A stretch of 26,185 nt of DNA from Oligoflexus sp. (GTDB taxonomy: Bacteria; Bdellovibrionota_B; Oligoflexia; Oligoflexales; Oligoflexaceae). Shown here one piece after another: positions 12,611 to 19,107 of the stretch; position 1 is the first letter of the stretch, and each line of letters begins with the position of its first letter. Made by a program: the position numbers and the translations under genes. The notes beneath the pieces were generated by a model that had not been told where the DNA came from, searched no databases, and saw nothing but the letters and a program-made list of their open reading frames with translations. The stretch is from the NCBI GenBank assembly GCA_041736305.1, contig JBGSTX010000127.1, positions 1-26,185 on the forward strand. Reading direction: 5' to 3'.

Positions 12611-13004
12611 TGAGAGTCTTTTGAGTTCAGCGAGATTATTGCTTCAGCATTTTGAAGACATACTTCTTGGTTTAGCTGCAAACAGCAAAGGAAAAGATCT
12701 TGATTTCTATGTTTACGTGGAATTCGATCGATAACCAAGATTCAGCCTGTACCACCACAAACTGACTTTCGGCAATGGGGGATATACCCCATTCAAATAC
12801 AATACCCACAGAGCCTTGCGTATTTTTCACGTTAAAAAAATCTTCAAACGCGCTACTTTTCCAACTGCAAATTGCGAATACTATTCACTTCTCAATCCAT
12901 ACCAAAATCTCATTAAACTTCTGAGGGCATTAGGGCGAAGGACTGTTCATCCTGTGCACATGAAGGCACTCGAATGTTTCATAAACTTGATGGAGATCTT
13001 TTAC

Positions 13005-15410
13005 ATGATCCTTAAGCCAATCCTCAAAAAAACTGCCTTGCTCGGGGTTGCTTCACTATTGGTAGTGGCATCCTGTGGCAAGAAAAAAAGCAGTTCCAGC
13101 ACATCGGGCACCGATGGCTCAGTCGAACCCAATGAAGACACTCTGGTAACATTGGCAACCGGCGCTCTGCAACTGGCGGGCGAAGTCACAATTCTGAAAG
13201 GCAAGGACGCGGGCGCGTCGCTGGCGATGAAGGAAGTTTCTTTCAAACTCGCAGGTGAACGCACTGTCCGTCTTCGTATGACGAATGAAGCCTTTGAAGA
13301 CGTCGAAAAAGCAGGCGAGATTATGTGCTTTCTGGCTCAAACCAAATTCTGGGAACAGGCCAACGCGGGTATATACCAAGCCCAGGTTGATGAGAATAAA
13401 TGTAAAAGCGAAAACAGTGGTGGTGGCGGTGGCGAAGGCGGCGGTGGTTCCAGTGACAACCAGGCACCTCAGCTGATGACCACATACGTGAAAGCAACTC
13501 GGGAAGAAGGCAAACCTCTGATCGCCGAAATGCGTCTCGCAGCGGGTGATAAAGAAGGTGCTTACTACCACGTTAAGGTTGTTATCGTTGAGCCACCTTC
13601 GGAAGCTGCTCCGGCTGGTATCTTTGATATGCGCTATACAGCCCATATGGGAGGCCAGATTGGCACCAAAGGCTTTATTCGCACCAAGCGTCTTACCGGC
13701 GACAAATTCGTTTTGGAAACTGGTAGCTTTGGCAGCGAAGGCAATCGCAAAGAAGACTCCAAAGGTATTGCTGAGTTGGAAGTCCTTGATGAAAACACCG
13801 TAACGGGCTACGTGCACAGCGATTCCTCCTACTCAGGAGAAGACGACGGCCACACCTATAGTAAGGCTTCCAAAGGTATCGCTCGTTTTGATGCCAACTT
13901 TCTCAATGTCAACTTTTCAGTCACTCAGAATAACGGAGGTTCAGAAGGTGCAGCCACCGAGGAACTCAAAGGCTGCTACGATCTAAATAAATTCAAAACC
14001 GCGATCTTCCGCTACGACCTTGTCGACTCAACAGGCGCAACTGTGAAGCGCAACTCTGGATTCCCAGTTGAATTTACCAAAGACGGTAAAAGCCGTCACG
14101 GCTGGGCCGGCTATCACGGTCTGTGGCTGGGTGAAAACGGTGCTGCGAGTGCTGGTATGACCATCAACAAAGTTGAATGGACCAATGGCAGCAAGGTGAG
14201 CACACCGTACACCGTGTTTGCTGCTCCTGGCAAACTCACTAAATTAACCAAGTCTACTGTGACCCTTGGCGCTCTGAAAGGGGCCGATCTCAACTTCTGG
14301 GACGGCGGCAGCAGCTACATCATCAAATGGGACGGCACGAGCCTCAGCAAAACAGCGAAGGTTACCCACAGTAACAATGGTCCTCAAGAAGAAGCCGCAA
14401 CTGGTGCTGTGGTTATACCTGAATGGGGCGCAAACCTTTGGGTTCCAAGTTTGAATGCCAATATTCAAATTTCGAAACAGATGACACTGAGTGACAATCT
14501 CACTTTGAGCTATCACTCCCAAAAGATTGTTTCTGGTACCGCAGAGGTTCCGACCTGTAATCTGGTTTGTTTCCAAAATTGTCCTGTGATGACGCCTGCT
14601 GCCGCCGCTTTCAATCGCTCGCAAGGCGGACAGCAACAGGGTCCTCAGGTGTCAGATCTTTATCACAAAGCCAATGTATCTTGGGGAAATCAGAGCTATT
14701 CCTCCAACCAATCCCAAAACATCACCACCCCCATGGCCACCTATACCTGGGATAGCACAAACCACAACCTAAAACAGGATGGAGCAGCATTTGTTCTGCC
14801 TTCGGGTTTGCCAACGGACCAGAACTCCATGCAGAACATGCAGAACGTCTGGTCAGGTGCCTTGGTTTGCGCGGACACCCACACTGCTATCGCTGATAAA
14901 ACTATCGACCCATGGCGCTTGTCCAACGAAGTGGCCACTTACTACACCTTTGAATCTGGCGCGATGGATTGGAACCGTTTCACAGGCCTCAGAGATGCCA
15001 ATGGACAATTCGTTGTCTTCGACGCACCTTTGGAACTGACCTATACTCACACGACAGCTAACGACTGGGACGGCAACACTGACACTGGGTTCATTGGCAA
15101 AAACTTCCGTCTGCAGTATGCAGGTCCAGGCCAACTCCAAGGTATCCCTTGGAAGTACGCAAAAGAAATCGGTCACCACATGCCTCTCTTTAGTATCAAA
15201 AGCGGAACAACCGTTGGCGACTATACAGTGTATGCTGTTGATGGCGAGCAACGCCTTGCCAAAGCCGCTGATGAAGCCAGCTGTGCGGCGCTACCTTTGG
15301 ACAGCGCTCCGACCCTTCCTTCAGTTGACAACCTGACAACCGTTGATGTTGGTGCAATCGGTGACGAGTCTTCGGAACTTCGCTACGTCGGTGGCGTTGC
15401 CACTGAGTAA
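13005..15410 (+). CDS. Large uncharacterised lipoprotein (801 aa), probably surface-exposed and beta-rich
   Basis: GGAG RBS, then MILKPILKKTALLGVASLLVVASC (lipobox VASC) and a Ser/Gly linker. Long open frame with Gly-rich spacers and several Cys. The ORF-track start at 12816 is implausible. Confidence 0.85.
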   Translation: MILKPILKKTALLGVASLLVVASCGKKKSSSSTSGTDGSVEPNEDTLVTLATGALQLAGEVTILKGKDAGASLAMKEVSFKLAGERTVRLRMTNEAFEDVEKAGEIMCFLAQTKFWEQANAGIYQAQVDENKCKSENSGGGGGEGGGGSSDNQAPQLMTTYVKATREEGKPLIAEMRLAAGDKEGAYYHVKVVIVEPPSEAAPAGIFDMRYTAHMGGQIGTKGFIRTKRLTGDKFVLETGSFGSEGNRKEDSKGIAELEVLDENTVTGYVHSDSSYSGEDDGHTYSKASKGIARFDANFLNVNFSVTQNNGGSEGAATEELKGCYDLNKFKTAIFRYDLVDSTGATVKRNSGFPVEFTKDGKSRHGWAGYHGLWLGENGAASAGMTINKVEWTNGSKVSTPYTVFAAPGKLTKLTKSTVTLGALKGADLNFWDGGSSYIIKWDGTSLSKTAKVTHSNNGPQEEAATGAVVIPEWGANLWVPSLNANIQISKQMTLSDNLTLSYHSQKIVSGTAEVPTCNLVCFQNCPVMTPAAAAFNRSQGGQQQGPQVSDLYHKANVSWGNQSYSSNQSQNITTPMATYTWDSTNHNLKQDGAAFVLPSGLPTDQNSMQNMQNVWSGALVCADTHTAIADKTIDPWRLSNEVATYYTFESGAMDWNRFTGLRDANGQFVVFDAPLELTYTHTTANDWDGNTDTGFIGKNFRLQYAGPGQLQGIPWKYAKEIGHHMPLFSIKSGTTVGDYTVYAVDGEQRLAKAADEASCAALPLDSAPTLPSVDNLTTVDVGAIGDESSELRYVGGVATE

Positions 15411-15436
15411 GCGCTCTTAAGATCAGAAGTTTTCCA

Positions 15437-15466
15437 AAGACTGTAAGGGACCTCCCTTACAGTCTT
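15437..15466 (+). terminator. Rho-independent terminator of the lipoprotein gene, with its U-tract cut off by the IS left end
   Basis: 13-bp perfect stem AAGACTGTAAGGG-acct-CCCTTACAGTCTT starting 26 nt after the stop codon; the IS inverted repeat starts at the next base. Confidence 0.85.
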
Positions 15467-15480
15467 CTTAAGTTTGGACA
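15467..15480 (+). repeat. IS left terminal inverted repeat CTTAAGTTTGGACA
   Basis: The reverse complement of 16968-16981 is CTTAACTTTGGACA (one mismatch). Confidence 0.85.
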
Positions 15481-15565
15481 AAAAAATACTCATTTCTAGA
15501 AAATAAATAGACCTTCCGATGACTTGGCCTAAAGTGGAGCTACCAAACTTTCACTAGGAGGCCAC

Positions 15566-16964
15566 ATGGAAGGTCTACTAGAAACACTTCTAAGACTAAT
15601 CTCGCCCTGGGACAATTTATTTCCACGAAACAAGTCATCTTTTCGAGCCAAAGCCATGTGCATCAGCCTTTTGATGGCTATGGGGAGAAAATTATTTACG
15701 CGTGCTTTAGCCGCATCGGGGCGCGATCAGCTCGACTGGAGTGCTGACTACAGACTTTTCAGTCGGTGTCGTTGGAGTCCTTGTCATTTGTTTCGGCCAA
15801 TACTTCGAGAGGCTGCAAAGCTTGTAGACGAGGCCCTGATTGCAGTTGCCTTTGATGATACCTTGATAAGGAAGACTGGTAAAAAGATTAAGGGAACTTC
15901 GTGGCAGCGAGATAGCCCGCTCGCCTCATTTTTCTATAAATTTTGTCTGGGGGATGCGTTATCTGCAGGCTTCGCTTCTACTTCCTCTTTATAAACGGTC
16001 AGAGCCAAAGCCTTGTCGTGCTATTCCCGTGCAGTTTGCTCAGCTGCCTAAGTTTAAAAAGCTGAGAAAAAAGGTCAGCCCAGAGGAATGGCAATCTTAC
16101 GCAGACCTAATAAAAAGACACAATACTTCTACTGAGTTTGTAAAGCAGCTTCGCTATCTTCGCAACGAGCTCAACCTGCAGGGTTTTAAGGATAAAAAAT
16201 TGTTAGCCGTCGTCGACGGTTCGTTTGTAAATAGAACATGCCTTCTCTCTGACATTGCTAATACCGACATTGTCGGCAGGACACGGAAAAACGCACGCTT
16301 CTTTTTTCGAGCTTCAAAAAAAAAGGGGAGGCGATTTTACGATCCCCAAAGCTATACTGCACAAGAGCTTAGAAAAAACTACAGCGTGCCCTACACGGTG
16401 GCAACAGCTTACTGTGCTGGCGATTATCGAGAGGTACGTTACAAAGAATATAAAGAAGTCTTTTGGAAATGGGGCACTAAAAGAAAGCCCCTTCGACTTA
16501 TCACAATCGCACCTACGCCCTATTGGAAAACTCATTATAGTAATCTCAATTATCGCGACCCCGCTTATCTGCTTACCACTAATTTTGATCTACCTGCGCT
16601 GGTCCTTATTCAGAAGTACCTCGACCGCTGGCAGATAGAAGTCAATTTTAAGGAAGAAAAAAGTCAAATGAGTCTCGGCAGGCAACAGGTGTGGTCGGAA
16701 AGATCCATTCCTAGAGCACCCGCGTTCATAGCTGCAAGCTATGCTGCTCTTATGCTTGCGGGTGTTTTACATTTTCACGATCATAGGTCCGAGGAAGTCT
16801 TTGGAATCCAGCCTAAATGGCGAAAAAAAGATGGCCTTCGGCCTTCTTTTGCGGATTATATGACGGTATTAAGGCGGGAAATGCTCGAAAAAGTTGAATT
16901 TGCTATGGACGGACCGCGTTTGAAATTCGAAAAATCGAAGGTCATTTCTTCAGCTGCGGCGTAG
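15566..16964 (+). pseudogene. DDE transposase split by a +1 frameshift near 15911-15925
   Basis: The N-terminal part has AFDDTLIRKTGKKI...WQRD. The next frame continues SPHFSINFVWGMRYLQAS...VVDGSF...YLDRWQIEVNFKEEK (Y-2-R-3-E-6-K signature). The span is 1399 nt; removing one base gives a 465-aa ORF. RBS GGAGG. Confidence 0.88.
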
Positions 16965-16967
16965 CTA

Positions 16968-16981
16968 TGTCCAAAGTTAAG
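16968..16981 (-). repeat. IS right terminal inverted repeat
   Basis: TGTCCAAAGTTAAG, 3 nt after the transposase stop codon. Confidence 0.85.
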
Positions 16982-17022
16982 TGTCACTGCAAGGGAAGTG
17001 CGAAGACTTAATCTGTTTAAAT

Positions 17023-17095
17023 GAACCGCCGGATACGGAACCGTACGTCCGGTGGTGTAGGAGGTCGAGGGGCGCAAGCTCCTCTCCTACCTAAT
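17023..17095 (+). ncRNA. Group II intron (class IIC) 3' remnant: domains V and VI
   Basis: DV reads ACCGCCGGA-UACG-GAAC-CGUA-CG-UCCGGUGGU, with CGC triad, GAAC tetraloop and CG bulge, all class IIC hallmarks. DVI is GAGGGGC-GCAA-GCUCCUC with a basal stem, a bulged A at 17089 (position -7) and terminal AU at 17094-17095. Confidence 0.92.
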
Positions 17096-17211
17096 TCGTT
17101 GTACCAGCTGACGAACTCAGATATCCATGCAGACGCTGATTCTAGGCTTTCAAAAGTTTTACTTGGGTAGGCAGGAGGGGGGCTTTTTTTAGTCTAGCTT
17201 GGCAAAAGAGG

Positions 17212-18246
17212 TTAGGGTTCTCGCGTCAGATCGAGAACTAGAGCCGCTGCCAGCTGCCCAGCCATACGCATGCTACTGCTCGACAGGCTTTCGGGTACAT
17301 CTTTTGCGGTGTGCCAGGTCTCAATATTATTGAAATCGATCATATTGAGCGCCTTCACGCCGCGATCCACAAAAGGCTTATGATCGTCTTCAATGGGTGC
17401 CCGCCGATTCGCTCGGTAGAGGAACCCTTTGTTGACCTTTTTATCGAGTTCAATGGCCTTTGCCAAGAGCCCAGGATCAGAATGGAGTTCACGGGTCAGG
17501 GAAGCGTTGGGCATGCCGACCATATCGAGTAGCAGCATGGCTTTAACTTTCTCTCCCCCCCACATCGCCGGCAGACACATACTACCATCACAGGGAGTCA
17601 GGAGACTCGCCATGTGCCGGCTGCCGTAAAGGTGATCCTGAATTTTCGCAGGATGAGAACGCTCGCCGTCATACCATTCGGGGAGATAGGCTTCTTCGGC
17701 ATCAAACCAAACAGCGAGGATGCTGCAGCGCAGCTGCTCTTTAATCTCAGCTTTCTGCAGGCCCCGCATCAGCTCGAGAACCACCGCGGTCGATGAGCCA
17801 CTGTCGTTAGCACCCAGCGAGATTTCGCCTTCTAGACGCTTGGAATCATAGTGAGAAGCGACCAGGAGAACACAGGAACTGCCTGGGACTTTGAGCTTCG
17901 CCAGCACGTTTGCAGCTTCGAGATCTAGAGTCGTCGTCTGCATGACGCTCGCAGCATTCAAGGCAGCGGGATCAGGCACTGTAGCTATGAAAGCATCTAG
18001 CTGCACCTCTAGGCCCGCTGCCTCCGCTTCGGATTTGAGGTATTCCATGACTTGCTTTTGGCGGGGGGAACCCATGGGATGAGGTTCAGCCGCTACGAAC
18101 TTCACGCTTGCTTCTACCCGCGCTTCATCCCAGCTAATAGGAGCTGCATCACTTGCCGTGTCGTCTTTCGAGGACTTACCCTTGCAAAAGGCACCGAGCA
18201 GGATCGCAAAACTGAGGCCTAGAGTGCAGAATTTTTCGATCTTCAC
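17212..18246 (-). CDS. M28-family Zn lipoprotein, glutaminyl-peptide cyclotransferase-like
   Basis: Signal peptide with Cys (LLGAFC); motifs SHYDSK, GANDSGS, FDAEEA, LYGSRH, LLDMVG, IEDDHKPF, WHT. Confidence 0.82.
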   Translation of the reverse strand: MKIEKFCTLGLSFAILLGAFCKGKSSKDDTASDAAPISWDEARVEASVKFVAAEPHPMGSPRQKQVMEYLKSEAEAAGLEVQLDAFIATVPDPAALNAASVMQTTTLDLEAANVLAKLKVPGSSCVLLVASHYDSKRLEGEISLGANDSGSSTAVVLELMRGLQKAEIKEQLRCSILAVWFDAEEAYLPEWYDGERSHPAKIQDHLYGSRHMASLLTPCDGSMCLPAMWGGEKVKAMLLLDMVGMPNASLTRELHSDPGLLAKAIELDKKVNKGFLYRANRRAPIEDDHKPFVDRGVKALNMIDFNNIETWHTAKDVPESLSSSSMRMAGQLAAALVLDLTREP

Positions 18247-18261
18247 GCTGGCCTCACGGAT

Positions 18262-19107
18262 TTAAGATTTTTTCGTAGTAGACGGCGCAGCGACCCGACC
18301 TCGCGCGTCGCCGTCGAGCCAAGGGAACCATTCGAGGAGCTTGCCGCTGAAGGCCAATATACCGACTATAATGAAGGGAATACTGAGCAGCTGGCCCATG
18401 TTGAGGGGGAGCTCGTTCTCAAAACCAACCTGGTTTTCTTTAACAAACTCGATGAAGAAGCGGGCTGTAAAAATCCAGGTCAGCATCAGACCGATCAAAC
18501 GACCCCGAACCTCTGGCGCTTTAGTCTTAAAGTACATCCAGTAGAGAATCACAAAGAGTACAAGATAACTCGCGGCCTCGTAGAGCATCGCAGGATGCCG
18601 AGGAGTGTTGTCACCAGCCGCCGCAAAGATGATCCCGAAAGCGCTATCAGTAGGTTTGCCGAGAATCTCTGAATTAAAGAAGTTGCCGATGCGAATACAG
18701 GCGGCGGTAAAAGCGGTGCCTATCGCGATTCGATCGGCAAGCCAGATATAGCCTTGATCAGGGTGCTTGCGCTTATACAGCCAGGTAGAGAATAGAACGC
18801 CGACAGAGCCTCCATGACTCGCCAGCCCCCCGCGCCACACATAGAGGATTTCAAAGGGATGGCTCAGATAGTATTCGGGCTCGTAAAAGAGACAATGGCC
18901 GATACGCGCGCCGATGATAGTTCCGAGCATGAGGTGCATCAGCAGAGAGGAGAGATCTTCCTCGTTACGGCCTTCCCTTATGAAGATCTTCTGCATGATC
19001 GAATAGCCGACCATAAAACCGATCGCAAACATGAGCCCGTACCAGCGGGGGGCAAAGGAGCCAATGTTGAAAATTTCCGGAGAAAAGTCCCAAACGAAAT
19101 GTTCCAT
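18262..19107 (-). CDS. lgt: Prolipoprotein diacylglyceryl transferase
   Basis: RWYGLMF, IGARIGHCLFY, WRGGLASHGG, RIGNFFNSE, RHPAMLYE, RFFIEFVK, MGQLLSIP. Confidence 0.96.
   Translation of the reverse strand: MEHFVWDFSPEIFNIGSFAPRWYGLMFAIGFMVGYSIMQKIFIREGRNEEDLSSLLMHLMLGTIIGARIGHCLFYEPEYYLSHPFEILYVWRGGLASHGGSVGVLFSTWLYKRKHPDQGYIWLADRIAIGTAFTAACIRIGNFFNSEILGKPTDSAFGIIFAAAGDNTPRHPAMLYEAASYLVLFVILYWMYFKTKAPEVRGRLIGLMLTWIFTARFFIEFVKENQVGFENELPLNMGQLLSIPFIIVGILAFSGKLLEWFPWLDGDARGRVAAPSTTKKS

What the first reader, a model, noticed from the sequence alone, without database searches (positions are those of the whole stretch)
15437..17095. Terminator / IS / group IIC intron tail: a fossil of nested mobile elements, or an IS-intron chimera
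Seen: the IS left repeat starts on the base after a terminator stem. The right repeat is followed by 41 nt and then intact intron domains V-VI. There is no target-site duplication, no intron domains I-IV and no reverse transcriptase. Established: class IIC introns insert just downstream of intrinsic terminators, and DDE elements cause adjacent deletions that remove one duplication. Inference: an intron first homed to this terminator, the IS inserted near the end of its ORF, and an adjacent deletion removed the 5' portion. A less likely but more novel reading is that IS plus DV-DVI travels as one unit.
Basis: partly seen in the sequence, partly recalled or inferred. Interest (0 to 1): 0.7.

Follow-up and report, generated by a model that had tools for sequence, protein, structure and literature searches.

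The report
Hairpin-targeting transposon beside intron stump
A broken jumping gene sits between a transcription-stop hairpin and the last 114 bases of a self-splicing intron; the pairing is a one-off deletion scar and not a hybrid element, but the jumping gene belongs to a family that lands on DNA hairpins by itself and copies the whole hairpin to both of its sides.

Summary
The anatomy is real: terminator hairpin 15437-15466, a 1,515-bp DDE insertion sequence (frameshifted transposase), 41 nt, then group IIC intron domains V-VI. Independent contigs of the probable source reads span every junction at single-copy depth. The 41 nt are the end of the intron's reverse-transcriptase gene. The IS needs no intron to reach a terminator: across relatives a hairpin lies flush at 112 of 119 IS ends against 52 of 2,708 control sites, and 29 of 57 complete loci carry a perfect 19-30 bp duplication that is the whole hairpin. 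The left hairpin here is thus one copy of the expected duplication; the right copy is lost together with about 1.75 kb of intron, exactly at the IS tip. A travelling chimera is unsupported: 0 of 93 other IS locus records carry DV-DVI, and a metagenome junction scan gave 8 hits, none with this transposase. The locus is an ordinary fossil; the order of events is unresolved. Whole-hairpin duplication is the interesting part: known for IS1630 (IS30 family), not found in my searches for IS4/IS701-like elements, and noted by this scan before on other DNA.

The parts
12816..15410 (+). Upstream 864-aa gene of unknown family (context); its terminator is the IS target
   Evidence: ORF; no Pfam or NCBIfam hit; 50-72% identical homologs in five same-genus genomes
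15437..15466 (+). Intrinsic-terminator hairpin, 14-bp perfect palindrome; host sequence, and the surviving left copy of the expected target duplication
   Evidence: the same hairpin follows the orthologous gene, without IS, in G006 and G007
15467..15480 (+). IS left terminal inverted repeat
   Evidence: same end in G000:C156 and four G002 contig ends
15566..15994 (+). Transposase N-terminal part (first catalytic Asp), broken off by a frameshift near 15919
   Evidence: DDE_5 E 8e-7; unitig spanning the site has no other letters
15954..16964 (+). Transposase C-terminal part (second Asp, Glu, complete YREK motif)
   Evidence: DDE_Tnp_1; 2,305 homologs at E<=1e-10; invariant columns
16968..16981 (-). 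IS right terminal inverted repeat; no hairpin follows it, unlike 56 of 60 right ends in the family
16982..17022 (+). 41-nt remnant of the 3' end of the intron reverse-transcriptase ORF (end of domain IV), decayed
   Evidence: aligns with four relatives, 0 of 2000 shuffles as good in each; the 41 nt before the junction do not align
17023..17095 (+). Group IIC intron domain V (17025-17056) and domain VI (17058-17093), bulged A 17089, 3' end 17095
17096..17211 (.). Intron 3' flank / intergenic DNA
   Evidence: no second copy in the genome and no match in relatives' loci
17212..18246 (-). M28 peptidase gene, convergent, behind lgt (context)
   Evidence: Pfam; present in 14 of 14 genus genomes

Best explanation
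A one-off deletion scar between two independent terminator-seeking elements. Shown: the IS belongs to an IS4/IS701-like DDE family that inserts at the foot of DNA hairpins and duplicates the whole hairpin; the tail is the 3' end of a class IIC intron whose intact relatives sit behind terminators. Inferred: the IS landed on this terminator (hairpin-IS-hairpin); a IIC intron lay to its right, either behind the right-hand hairpin copy or further on; the IS right end was then joined to a site 41 nt before domain V, most likely by the transposase itself (adjacent deletion), removing the second hairpin, at least about 1.75 kb of intron and whatever lay between. Both remnants then decayed. Inferred mechanism of the long duplication: the transposase cuts each strand at the base of an extruded hairpin or cruciform, where the two bonds are close whatever the stem length, and fill-in copies the palindrome. 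The assembly is inert: it can neither splice (no domains I-IV) nor, on its own, transpose (frameshift; no intact copy in the assembly).
For: Hairpin of at least 7 bp flush at 56 of 59 left and 56 of 60 right ends against 52 of 2,708 flank controls and 43 of 3,000 random sites of this genome. 29 of 57 complete loci have perfect 19-30 bp duplications, 29 different sequences from 16 assemblies, each one hairpin. Same-genus G002: two left/right contig-end pairs share 18- and 24-bp hairpins. In this genome the other left end (C156) follows a different terminator and the other right end (C187) precedes one, with no intron. The terminator is host DNA (G006, G007). Intron homology starts at the IS tip and none lies before it. 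Intact sister introns in G011 and G010 start 7 and 6 nt behind terminator stems. Free intron stumps are common: four other DV-DVI remnants and one 119-nt 5' piece in this genome, none beside this IS.
Against: The right junction has no hairpin (5 pairs; z 0.26; none at the homologous site of four relatives), so the step that made it was off-target; only 7 of 119 family ends lack a hairpin. No empty or intermediate allele was found; similarity of 17096-17211 to the DNA behind the terminator in G006/G007 is not above shuffles (194 and 201 of 300 as good), so it is not shown that the intron ever sat at this terminator. The cruciform mechanism is inference only.
Confidence: 0.55

Rival explanations
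1. One reading: the intron homed behind this terminator, the IS inserted near the end of the intron ORF, and the IS left end then attacked the terminator hairpin, deleting the intron's 5' part.
For: Gives the same structure; the left end sits at the hairpin foot as the family prefers; IIC relatives do home behind terminators.
Against: Needs a primary insertion at a non-hairpin site, rare in this family (7 of 119 ends, two of which look like damaged duplications); the intron is not needed to bring the IS to the terminator.
Confidence: 0.2
2. Rearrangement between two IS copies (or a longer IS-mediated deletion) brought together flanks from different places; the intron never sat at this terminator.
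For: 18 of 57 complete family loci have two different hairpins as flanks. G006 and G007 carry a serine-hydrolase-like gene behind this terminator that is not found in this assembly. None of 15 M28 loci from the 13 other genus genomes shows the 864-aa gene within 1.5 kb.
Against: Still needs one off-target insertion in the intron ORF; the gene after M28 differs among nearly all relatives, so lack of synteny says little; the assembly is 92.7% complete.
Confidence: 0.15
3. The intron arrived already 5'-truncated (aborted reverse transcription) or was trimmed by a host deletion, and the end fell at the IS tip by chance or by repair of a transposase-made break.
For: 5'-truncated stumps without this IS are frequent here (C305, C218, C194, C102; G008:C147).
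Against: The junction is at the IS tip to within one shared base and none of the right hairpin copy is left, which chance trimming would rarely give.
Confidence: 0.05
4. Misassembly across the repeated IS right end (shared with the C187 remnant).
For: Positions 16865-16981 exist twice in the genome and form a shared node in the unitigs; no single listed contig spans the whole stretch.
Against: The two copies differ at 4 of 117 sites, longest identical run 48 nt; unitigs cover 14300-15851, 15832-16894, 16924-17056 and 17041-18300 with no other letters; depth 9.1 inside the IS against 7.8 and 8.5 outside. That run may be the source of the window, so this is a re-assembly, not an independent sample. 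A switch would still leave an IS right end joined to the intron stump.
Confidence: 0.03
5. IS plus DV-DVI travels as one chimeric unit.
For: Only the adjacency itself, and that DV-DVI still folds.
Against: 0 of 93 other IS locus records with DV-DVI, nor the one viral locus; 8 metagenome pattern hits, none with this transposase; the tail lies outside the right repeat; no hairpin duplication brackets IS plus tail; both parts are decayed.
Confidence: 0.02

Closest known systems
IS1630 of Mycoplasma fermentans (IS30 family; Calcutt et al. 1999, title seen only in a reference list; 19-26 bp duplications per PMC2853133, passages; 16-26 bp per PMC3317919, passages)
   Same: [quoted passage not shown]
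   Different: IS1630 is described as IS30-type; this transposase hits only IS701/IS4/IS1634 models. So it works like IS1630 but is not of its family.
IS4 family (subgroup ISPepr1) and IS701 family (De Palmenaer et al. 2008, PMC2266710, passages including Table 1)
   Same: DDE transposase, 1.5-kb size, complete YREK motif, ends matching 7 of the 8 specified positions of the ISPepr1 end signature; best NCBIfam hit IS701_3.
   Different: Duplication is a whole 18-30 bp hairpin rather than 7-8 bp (ISPepr1) or 4 bp (IS701); below every curated cut-off; has the Tyr that IS701 mostly lacks.
IS1272 (Wan et al. 2017, PMC5678879, abstract and outline)
   Same: Targets inverted-repeat structures.
   Different: IS1272 replaces the repeat and leaves no duplication; this family keeps and duplicates it.
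Bacterial class C / group IIC introns (PMC1702495, passages; PMC3522654, passages)
   Same: CGC triad, short domain V, insertion behind intrinsic terminators in intact relatives; fragments are common (55 of 135 distinct copies in PMC3522654).
   Different: Only 114 of about 1,870 nt remain; cannot splice or move.
IStrons such as CdISt1 (recalled, from no call)
   Same: A ribozyme and an IS in one place.
   Different: IStrons are complete group I introns enclosing IS genes and recur as units; here the ribozyme piece is outside the IS, incomplete and unique.

Membership tests
IS701 family | DDE transposase, element 1400-1550 bp | tested here: met
   D97/D98, D217, E358 invariant in 33 of 33 homologs; 1,515 bp
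IS701 family | 4-bp target duplication | tested here: not met
   19-30 bp in 29 of 57 complete loci
IS701 family | YREK tyrosine mostly absent | tested here: not met
   Y, R, E, K each in 33 of 33
IS701 family | NCBIfam IS701 model above cut-off | tested here: not met
   three intact homologs score 130-140 bits against 170
IS4 family / ISPepr1 subgroup | complete Y(2)R(3)E(6)K motif | tested here: met
IS4 family / ISPepr1 subgroup | D(60-110)D(100-150)E spacing | tested here: inconclusive
   about 119 and 140 residues: first spacer slightly outside the range
IS4 family / ISPepr1 subgroup | end signature of ISPepr1 | tested here: inconclusive
   7 of 8 specified positions match by eye
IS4 family / ISPepr1 subgroup | 7-13 bp target duplication; NCBIfam IS4 models above cut-off | tested here: not met
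   (best 44 bits against 152)
IS4 family / ISPepr1 subgroup | clusters with ISfinder reference transposases | not testable with these tools
   no ISfinder set at hand; the plasmid search gave only 23-27% hits labelled 'transposase' or unlabelled
IS30 family (IS1630 type) | IS30-type transposase | tested here: not met
   no IS30 model among NCBIfam or Pfam hits
IS30 family (IS1630 type) | duplicates whole inverted repeats of variable length | tested here: met
   (family level; this copy has lost one side)
Group IIC intron | CGC triad and domain V distal stem 2 bp shorter | tested here: met
   (4-nt gap against the Rfam consensus)
Group IIC intron | domain VI with bulged A and AY end | tested here: met
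Group IIC intron | 5' end, domains I-IV and RT ORF | tested here: not met
   absent from the window; no close RT in the assembly
Group IIC intron | inserted behind an intrinsic terminator | tested here: inconclusive
   met for 2 of 2 intact relatives whose 5' end was read; for this copy the 5' junction is lost
IStron-like chimera | IS and ribozyme recur together as one unit | tested here: not met

The most novel reading that the evidence does not exclude
The IS is a member of a widespread, apparently unnamed IS4/IS701-like group whose transposase reads hairpin shape, cuts at the foot of the stem and duplicates the whole 18-30 bp palindrome, and which therefore competes with class IIC introns for the same terminator sites; this locus records one such collision, in which the IS deleted the intron.
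Probability: 0.6. Interest if true: 0.55.

Novelty: new variant of a known kind. Interest (0 to 1): 0.4.

Why it matters
The IS-intron junction itself matters little: it is a dead scar. The IS family matters more. A DDE transposase that gives duplications of 18-30 bp set by the length of the target hairpin implies structure-directed cutting; PMC2266710 (2008) states that no mechanism had been proposed for variable long duplications. An intact member would make this directly testable, and an element that lands only at terminators, regenerating the terminator on both sides, would be a natural safe-harbour integrator. Annotators should also look for hairpin-long duplications before calling such elements 'without target duplication'.

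Tried and rejected
(1) A 4-bp TTAA duplication hidden inside the repeats is formally possible (boundary moved in by 5) but rejected: G002 ends differ at those positions and carry hairpin duplications outside them. (2) First automated search for terminal repeats mis-called most loci; redone with the family end motif. 15 of 80 loci were dropped before counting for lack of a good repeat pair (under 12 of 16 matches or an end missing); 8 of the 65 kept lack one or both flanks. (3) Empty allele: none found; relatives are about 70% identical; offset and local-alignment tests were not significant (one offset gave 8 of 12 matches in G007, post hoc, 1 of 16 offsets). (4) Sequencing runs: no RNA holder listed; runs X2-X4 cover only pieces. 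(5) An 11-base end pattern across the genus was at chance level. (6) Phylum-wide search found the transposase in only 4 of 131 genomes; viral contigs gave 1 locus. (7) The junction scan tests only one end type and gaps of 26-56 nt; 3 of its 8 hits are introns whose ORF codons mimic the IS end, 5 are not introns. (8) Trans-splicing with the 119-nt 5' piece on C142 rejected: most of domain I and domains II-IV are missing. (9) Programmed frameshift rejected: 110 of 119 homologs are single ORFs of at least 430 aa. (10) The primary IS1630 paper is not held. No structure prediction was run.

Full report
OBSERVATION. The window is contig C280 of a 5.0-Mb assembly in 392 contigs, 92.7% complete. An 864-aa gene ends at 15410; a perfect 14-bp palindrome lies at 15437-15466; terminal repeats at 15467-15480 and 16968-16981 (13 of 14 complementary) bound a 1,515-bp element. 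It encodes a DDE transposase in two overlapping ORFs (15566-15994, 15954-16964; Pfam DDE_5 and DDE_Tnp_1); 110 of 119 homologs are single ORFs of at least 430 aa, so this is a private frameshift, and the unitig across it has no other letters. After 41 nt come domains V and VI of a group II intron (17023-17095; Rfam RF00029, 44 bits; not reported by the faster scan), folding as expected with CGC triad, short domain V, bulged A and AT end. No repeat is flush at both IS ends.

IS IT AN ASSEMBLY ARTEFACT? One public run holds 98% of the sampled words and may be the source. Its independently built contigs cover the left junction, the IS body, the IS-tail junction (record 16924-17056) and the intron 3' junction without differences; depth is 9.1 in the IS against 7.8 and 8.5 outside. 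The only repeat is the last 117 bp of the IS, shared with a remnant on C187; the two differ at four sites. No single listed contig spans everything, so long reads would still be the proof, but misassembly is unlikely.

THE 41 NT. They align with the last codons of the RT ORF of four related introns (0 of 2000 shuffles as good in each), whereas the 41 nt before the junction do not (1760-1988 of 2000). Homology begins at the IS tip, to within one shared base. Two relatives whose 5' ends I could read (G011:C555, G010:C54, the latter 1,871 nt) begin 7 and 6 nt behind terminator stems; the G011 ORF is a group II RT/maturase above cut-off. With the features given in PMC1702495 (passages) this makes the stump class IIC. 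About 1.75 kb of intron is missing. No close RT exists in the assembly; the only hit is a distant one on C157 at 31%.

THE IS FINDS TERMINATORS BY ITSELF. In this genome a 53-nt left-end remnant (C156) follows a different terminator hairpin and a 117-nt right-end remnant (C187) is followed by one, neither with intron sequence. In same-genus G002 all seven fetched IS ends abut hairpins, and two left/right pairs share the same 18- and 24-bp hairpin. A scan of GTDB genomes gave 272 related stretches, of which the best 80 were kept; 65 of 80 had a good repeat pair. A hairpin of at least 7 bp lies within 3 nt of 56 of 59 left and 56 of 60 right ends, against 52 of 2,708 control positions and 43 of 3,000 random sites in this genome. 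Of 57 loci with both flanks, 29 have a perfect duplication of 19-30 bp, 4 a near-perfect one, 18 two different hairpins and 6 lack a hairpin on at least one side. The 29 duplications are 29 different sequences from 16 assemblies (acidobacteria dominate, and kin are not independent), each a complete stem-loop with at most a base or two of flank. The window's hairpin is host DNA: G006 and G007 have it behind the orthologous gene without any IS. So the expected product here was hairpin-IS-hairpin, and the right copy is what is missing.

CHIMERA TEST. A profile of domains V-VI found the window's own stump but none in 93 other IS locus records (425 kb with the window's locus; some records overlap and many have short flanks), and none in the single viral locus. 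A scan of the metagenome collection for this IS end followed 26-56 nt later by a class C domain V gave 8 hits, none with the transposase. The genome holds four other DV-DVI remnants and a decayed 119-nt intron 5' piece behind another terminator, none beside this IS. PMC3522654 (passages) counts 55 fragmented among 135 distinct intron copies in enterobacteria, so stumps are ordinary.

HOW IT AROSE. Shown: two terminator-seeking elements, a junction exactly at the IS tip, loss of the second hairpin and most of the intron. Inferred: a transposase-made adjacent deletion (general knowledge of DDE elements; the one paper search on this gave a listing only). Against it: the junction site is no hairpin, here or in the relatives, so one off-target step is needed in every order. 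Synteny does not decide: G006/G007 continue with a serine-hydrolase-like gene not found in this assembly, G008 with a homolog of the C156 gene, and the gene after M28 varies across the genus. A roughly 96%-identical relative (run X4) diverges right at the M28 stop, while one read of run X3 shares 17131-17281. Similarity between 17096-17211 and the post-terminator DNA of G006/G007 is at shuffle level. Whether the intron ever sat at this terminator is therefore open.

COMPARISON WITH WHAT IS KNOWN. The transposase has an invariant DDE and a complete YREK motif and ends like the IS4 subgroup ISPepr1, but scores below all NCBIfam cut-offs (best IS701_3, 130-140 of 170 bits), and its duplication fits neither IS701 (4 bp) nor IS4 (7-13 bp) as tabulated in PMC2266710 (passages). 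I file it as IS4/IS701-like and unassigned. It works like IS1630 (IS30 family), whose paper title states targeting and duplication of inverted repeats of variable length (reference list only; lengths from passages; the paper itself is not held). IS1272 targets inverted repeats but replaces them (abstract). Nine paper searches showed no description of whole-hairpin duplication in IS4/IS701-like elements; the library lacks most subscription papers and ISfinder, and I opened no supplements. After I had reached this reading, the scan's notes showed five earlier reports of the same behaviour on other DNA; they are unchecked AI notes, not independent support, and gave me the IS1272 lead. The cruciform-cutting model is my inference; that a similar idea was proposed for IS1630 is recalled, not seen.

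VERDICT. Observation confirmed; fossil reading broadly right, mechanism revised; chimera rejected. The locus alone would score about 0.15. The hairpin-duplicating family, tested here with controls, is a new variant of a known kind and lifts the score to 0.4.

Noticed in passing
G000:C156 1149-1199 and C187 3588-3704, C212 18264-18692: Three more remnants of the same IS in this genome (left end, right end, internal piece at 84%); both end remnants abut terminator hairpins. No intact copy in the assembly.
   Followed up: yes
G000:C142 39691-39809: Decayed 119-nt 5' end of a sister IIC intron directly behind another terminator, in a region with VirB-like and ParA-like ORFs (labels by eye).
   Followed up: partly
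window 17165-17190: A G-rich stretch followed by seven T looks like the 3' half of a terminator whose 5' arm is missing, possibly another deletion scar.
   Followed up: partly
L033 (G007:C509): An ISNCY-like transposase fragment lies next to a roughly 190-nt stump of a different group II intron: a parallel IS-beside-intron-tail fossil with unrelated elements. The IS end was judged by eye.
   Followed up: partly
L041-L118: Acidobacterial and deltaproteobacterial members are about 1.83-1.89 kb, some 350 bp longer upstream of the transposase than the 1.47-1.55 kb members, apparently with a small extra ORF; not tested.
   Followed up: no
L045, L046: Two copies in one assembly share almost the same right flank, and the left flank of L046 is its reverse complement, suggesting an IS-mediated inversion or duplication.
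   Followed up: no
L037 (G008:C249) and G000:C156: In G008 the 864-aa gene is convergent with a 479-aa gene; in this genome the two homologs lie on different contigs and each has an IS left end at its terminator.
   Followed up: partly
window 12816-15410: 864-aa protein with no Pfam or NCBIfam hit, conserved in the genus, with a lipoprotein-like N-terminus (by eye).
   Followed up: no
G000:C157 315-1439: A distant group II intron-type RT ORF (31% identity to the IIC RT), a different intron.
   Followed up: no
G000:C305 6749-7121: The closest sister stump (92% over 84 nt) abuts an ORF fragment that by eye resembles a transposase; no NCBIfam hit.
   Followed up: partly
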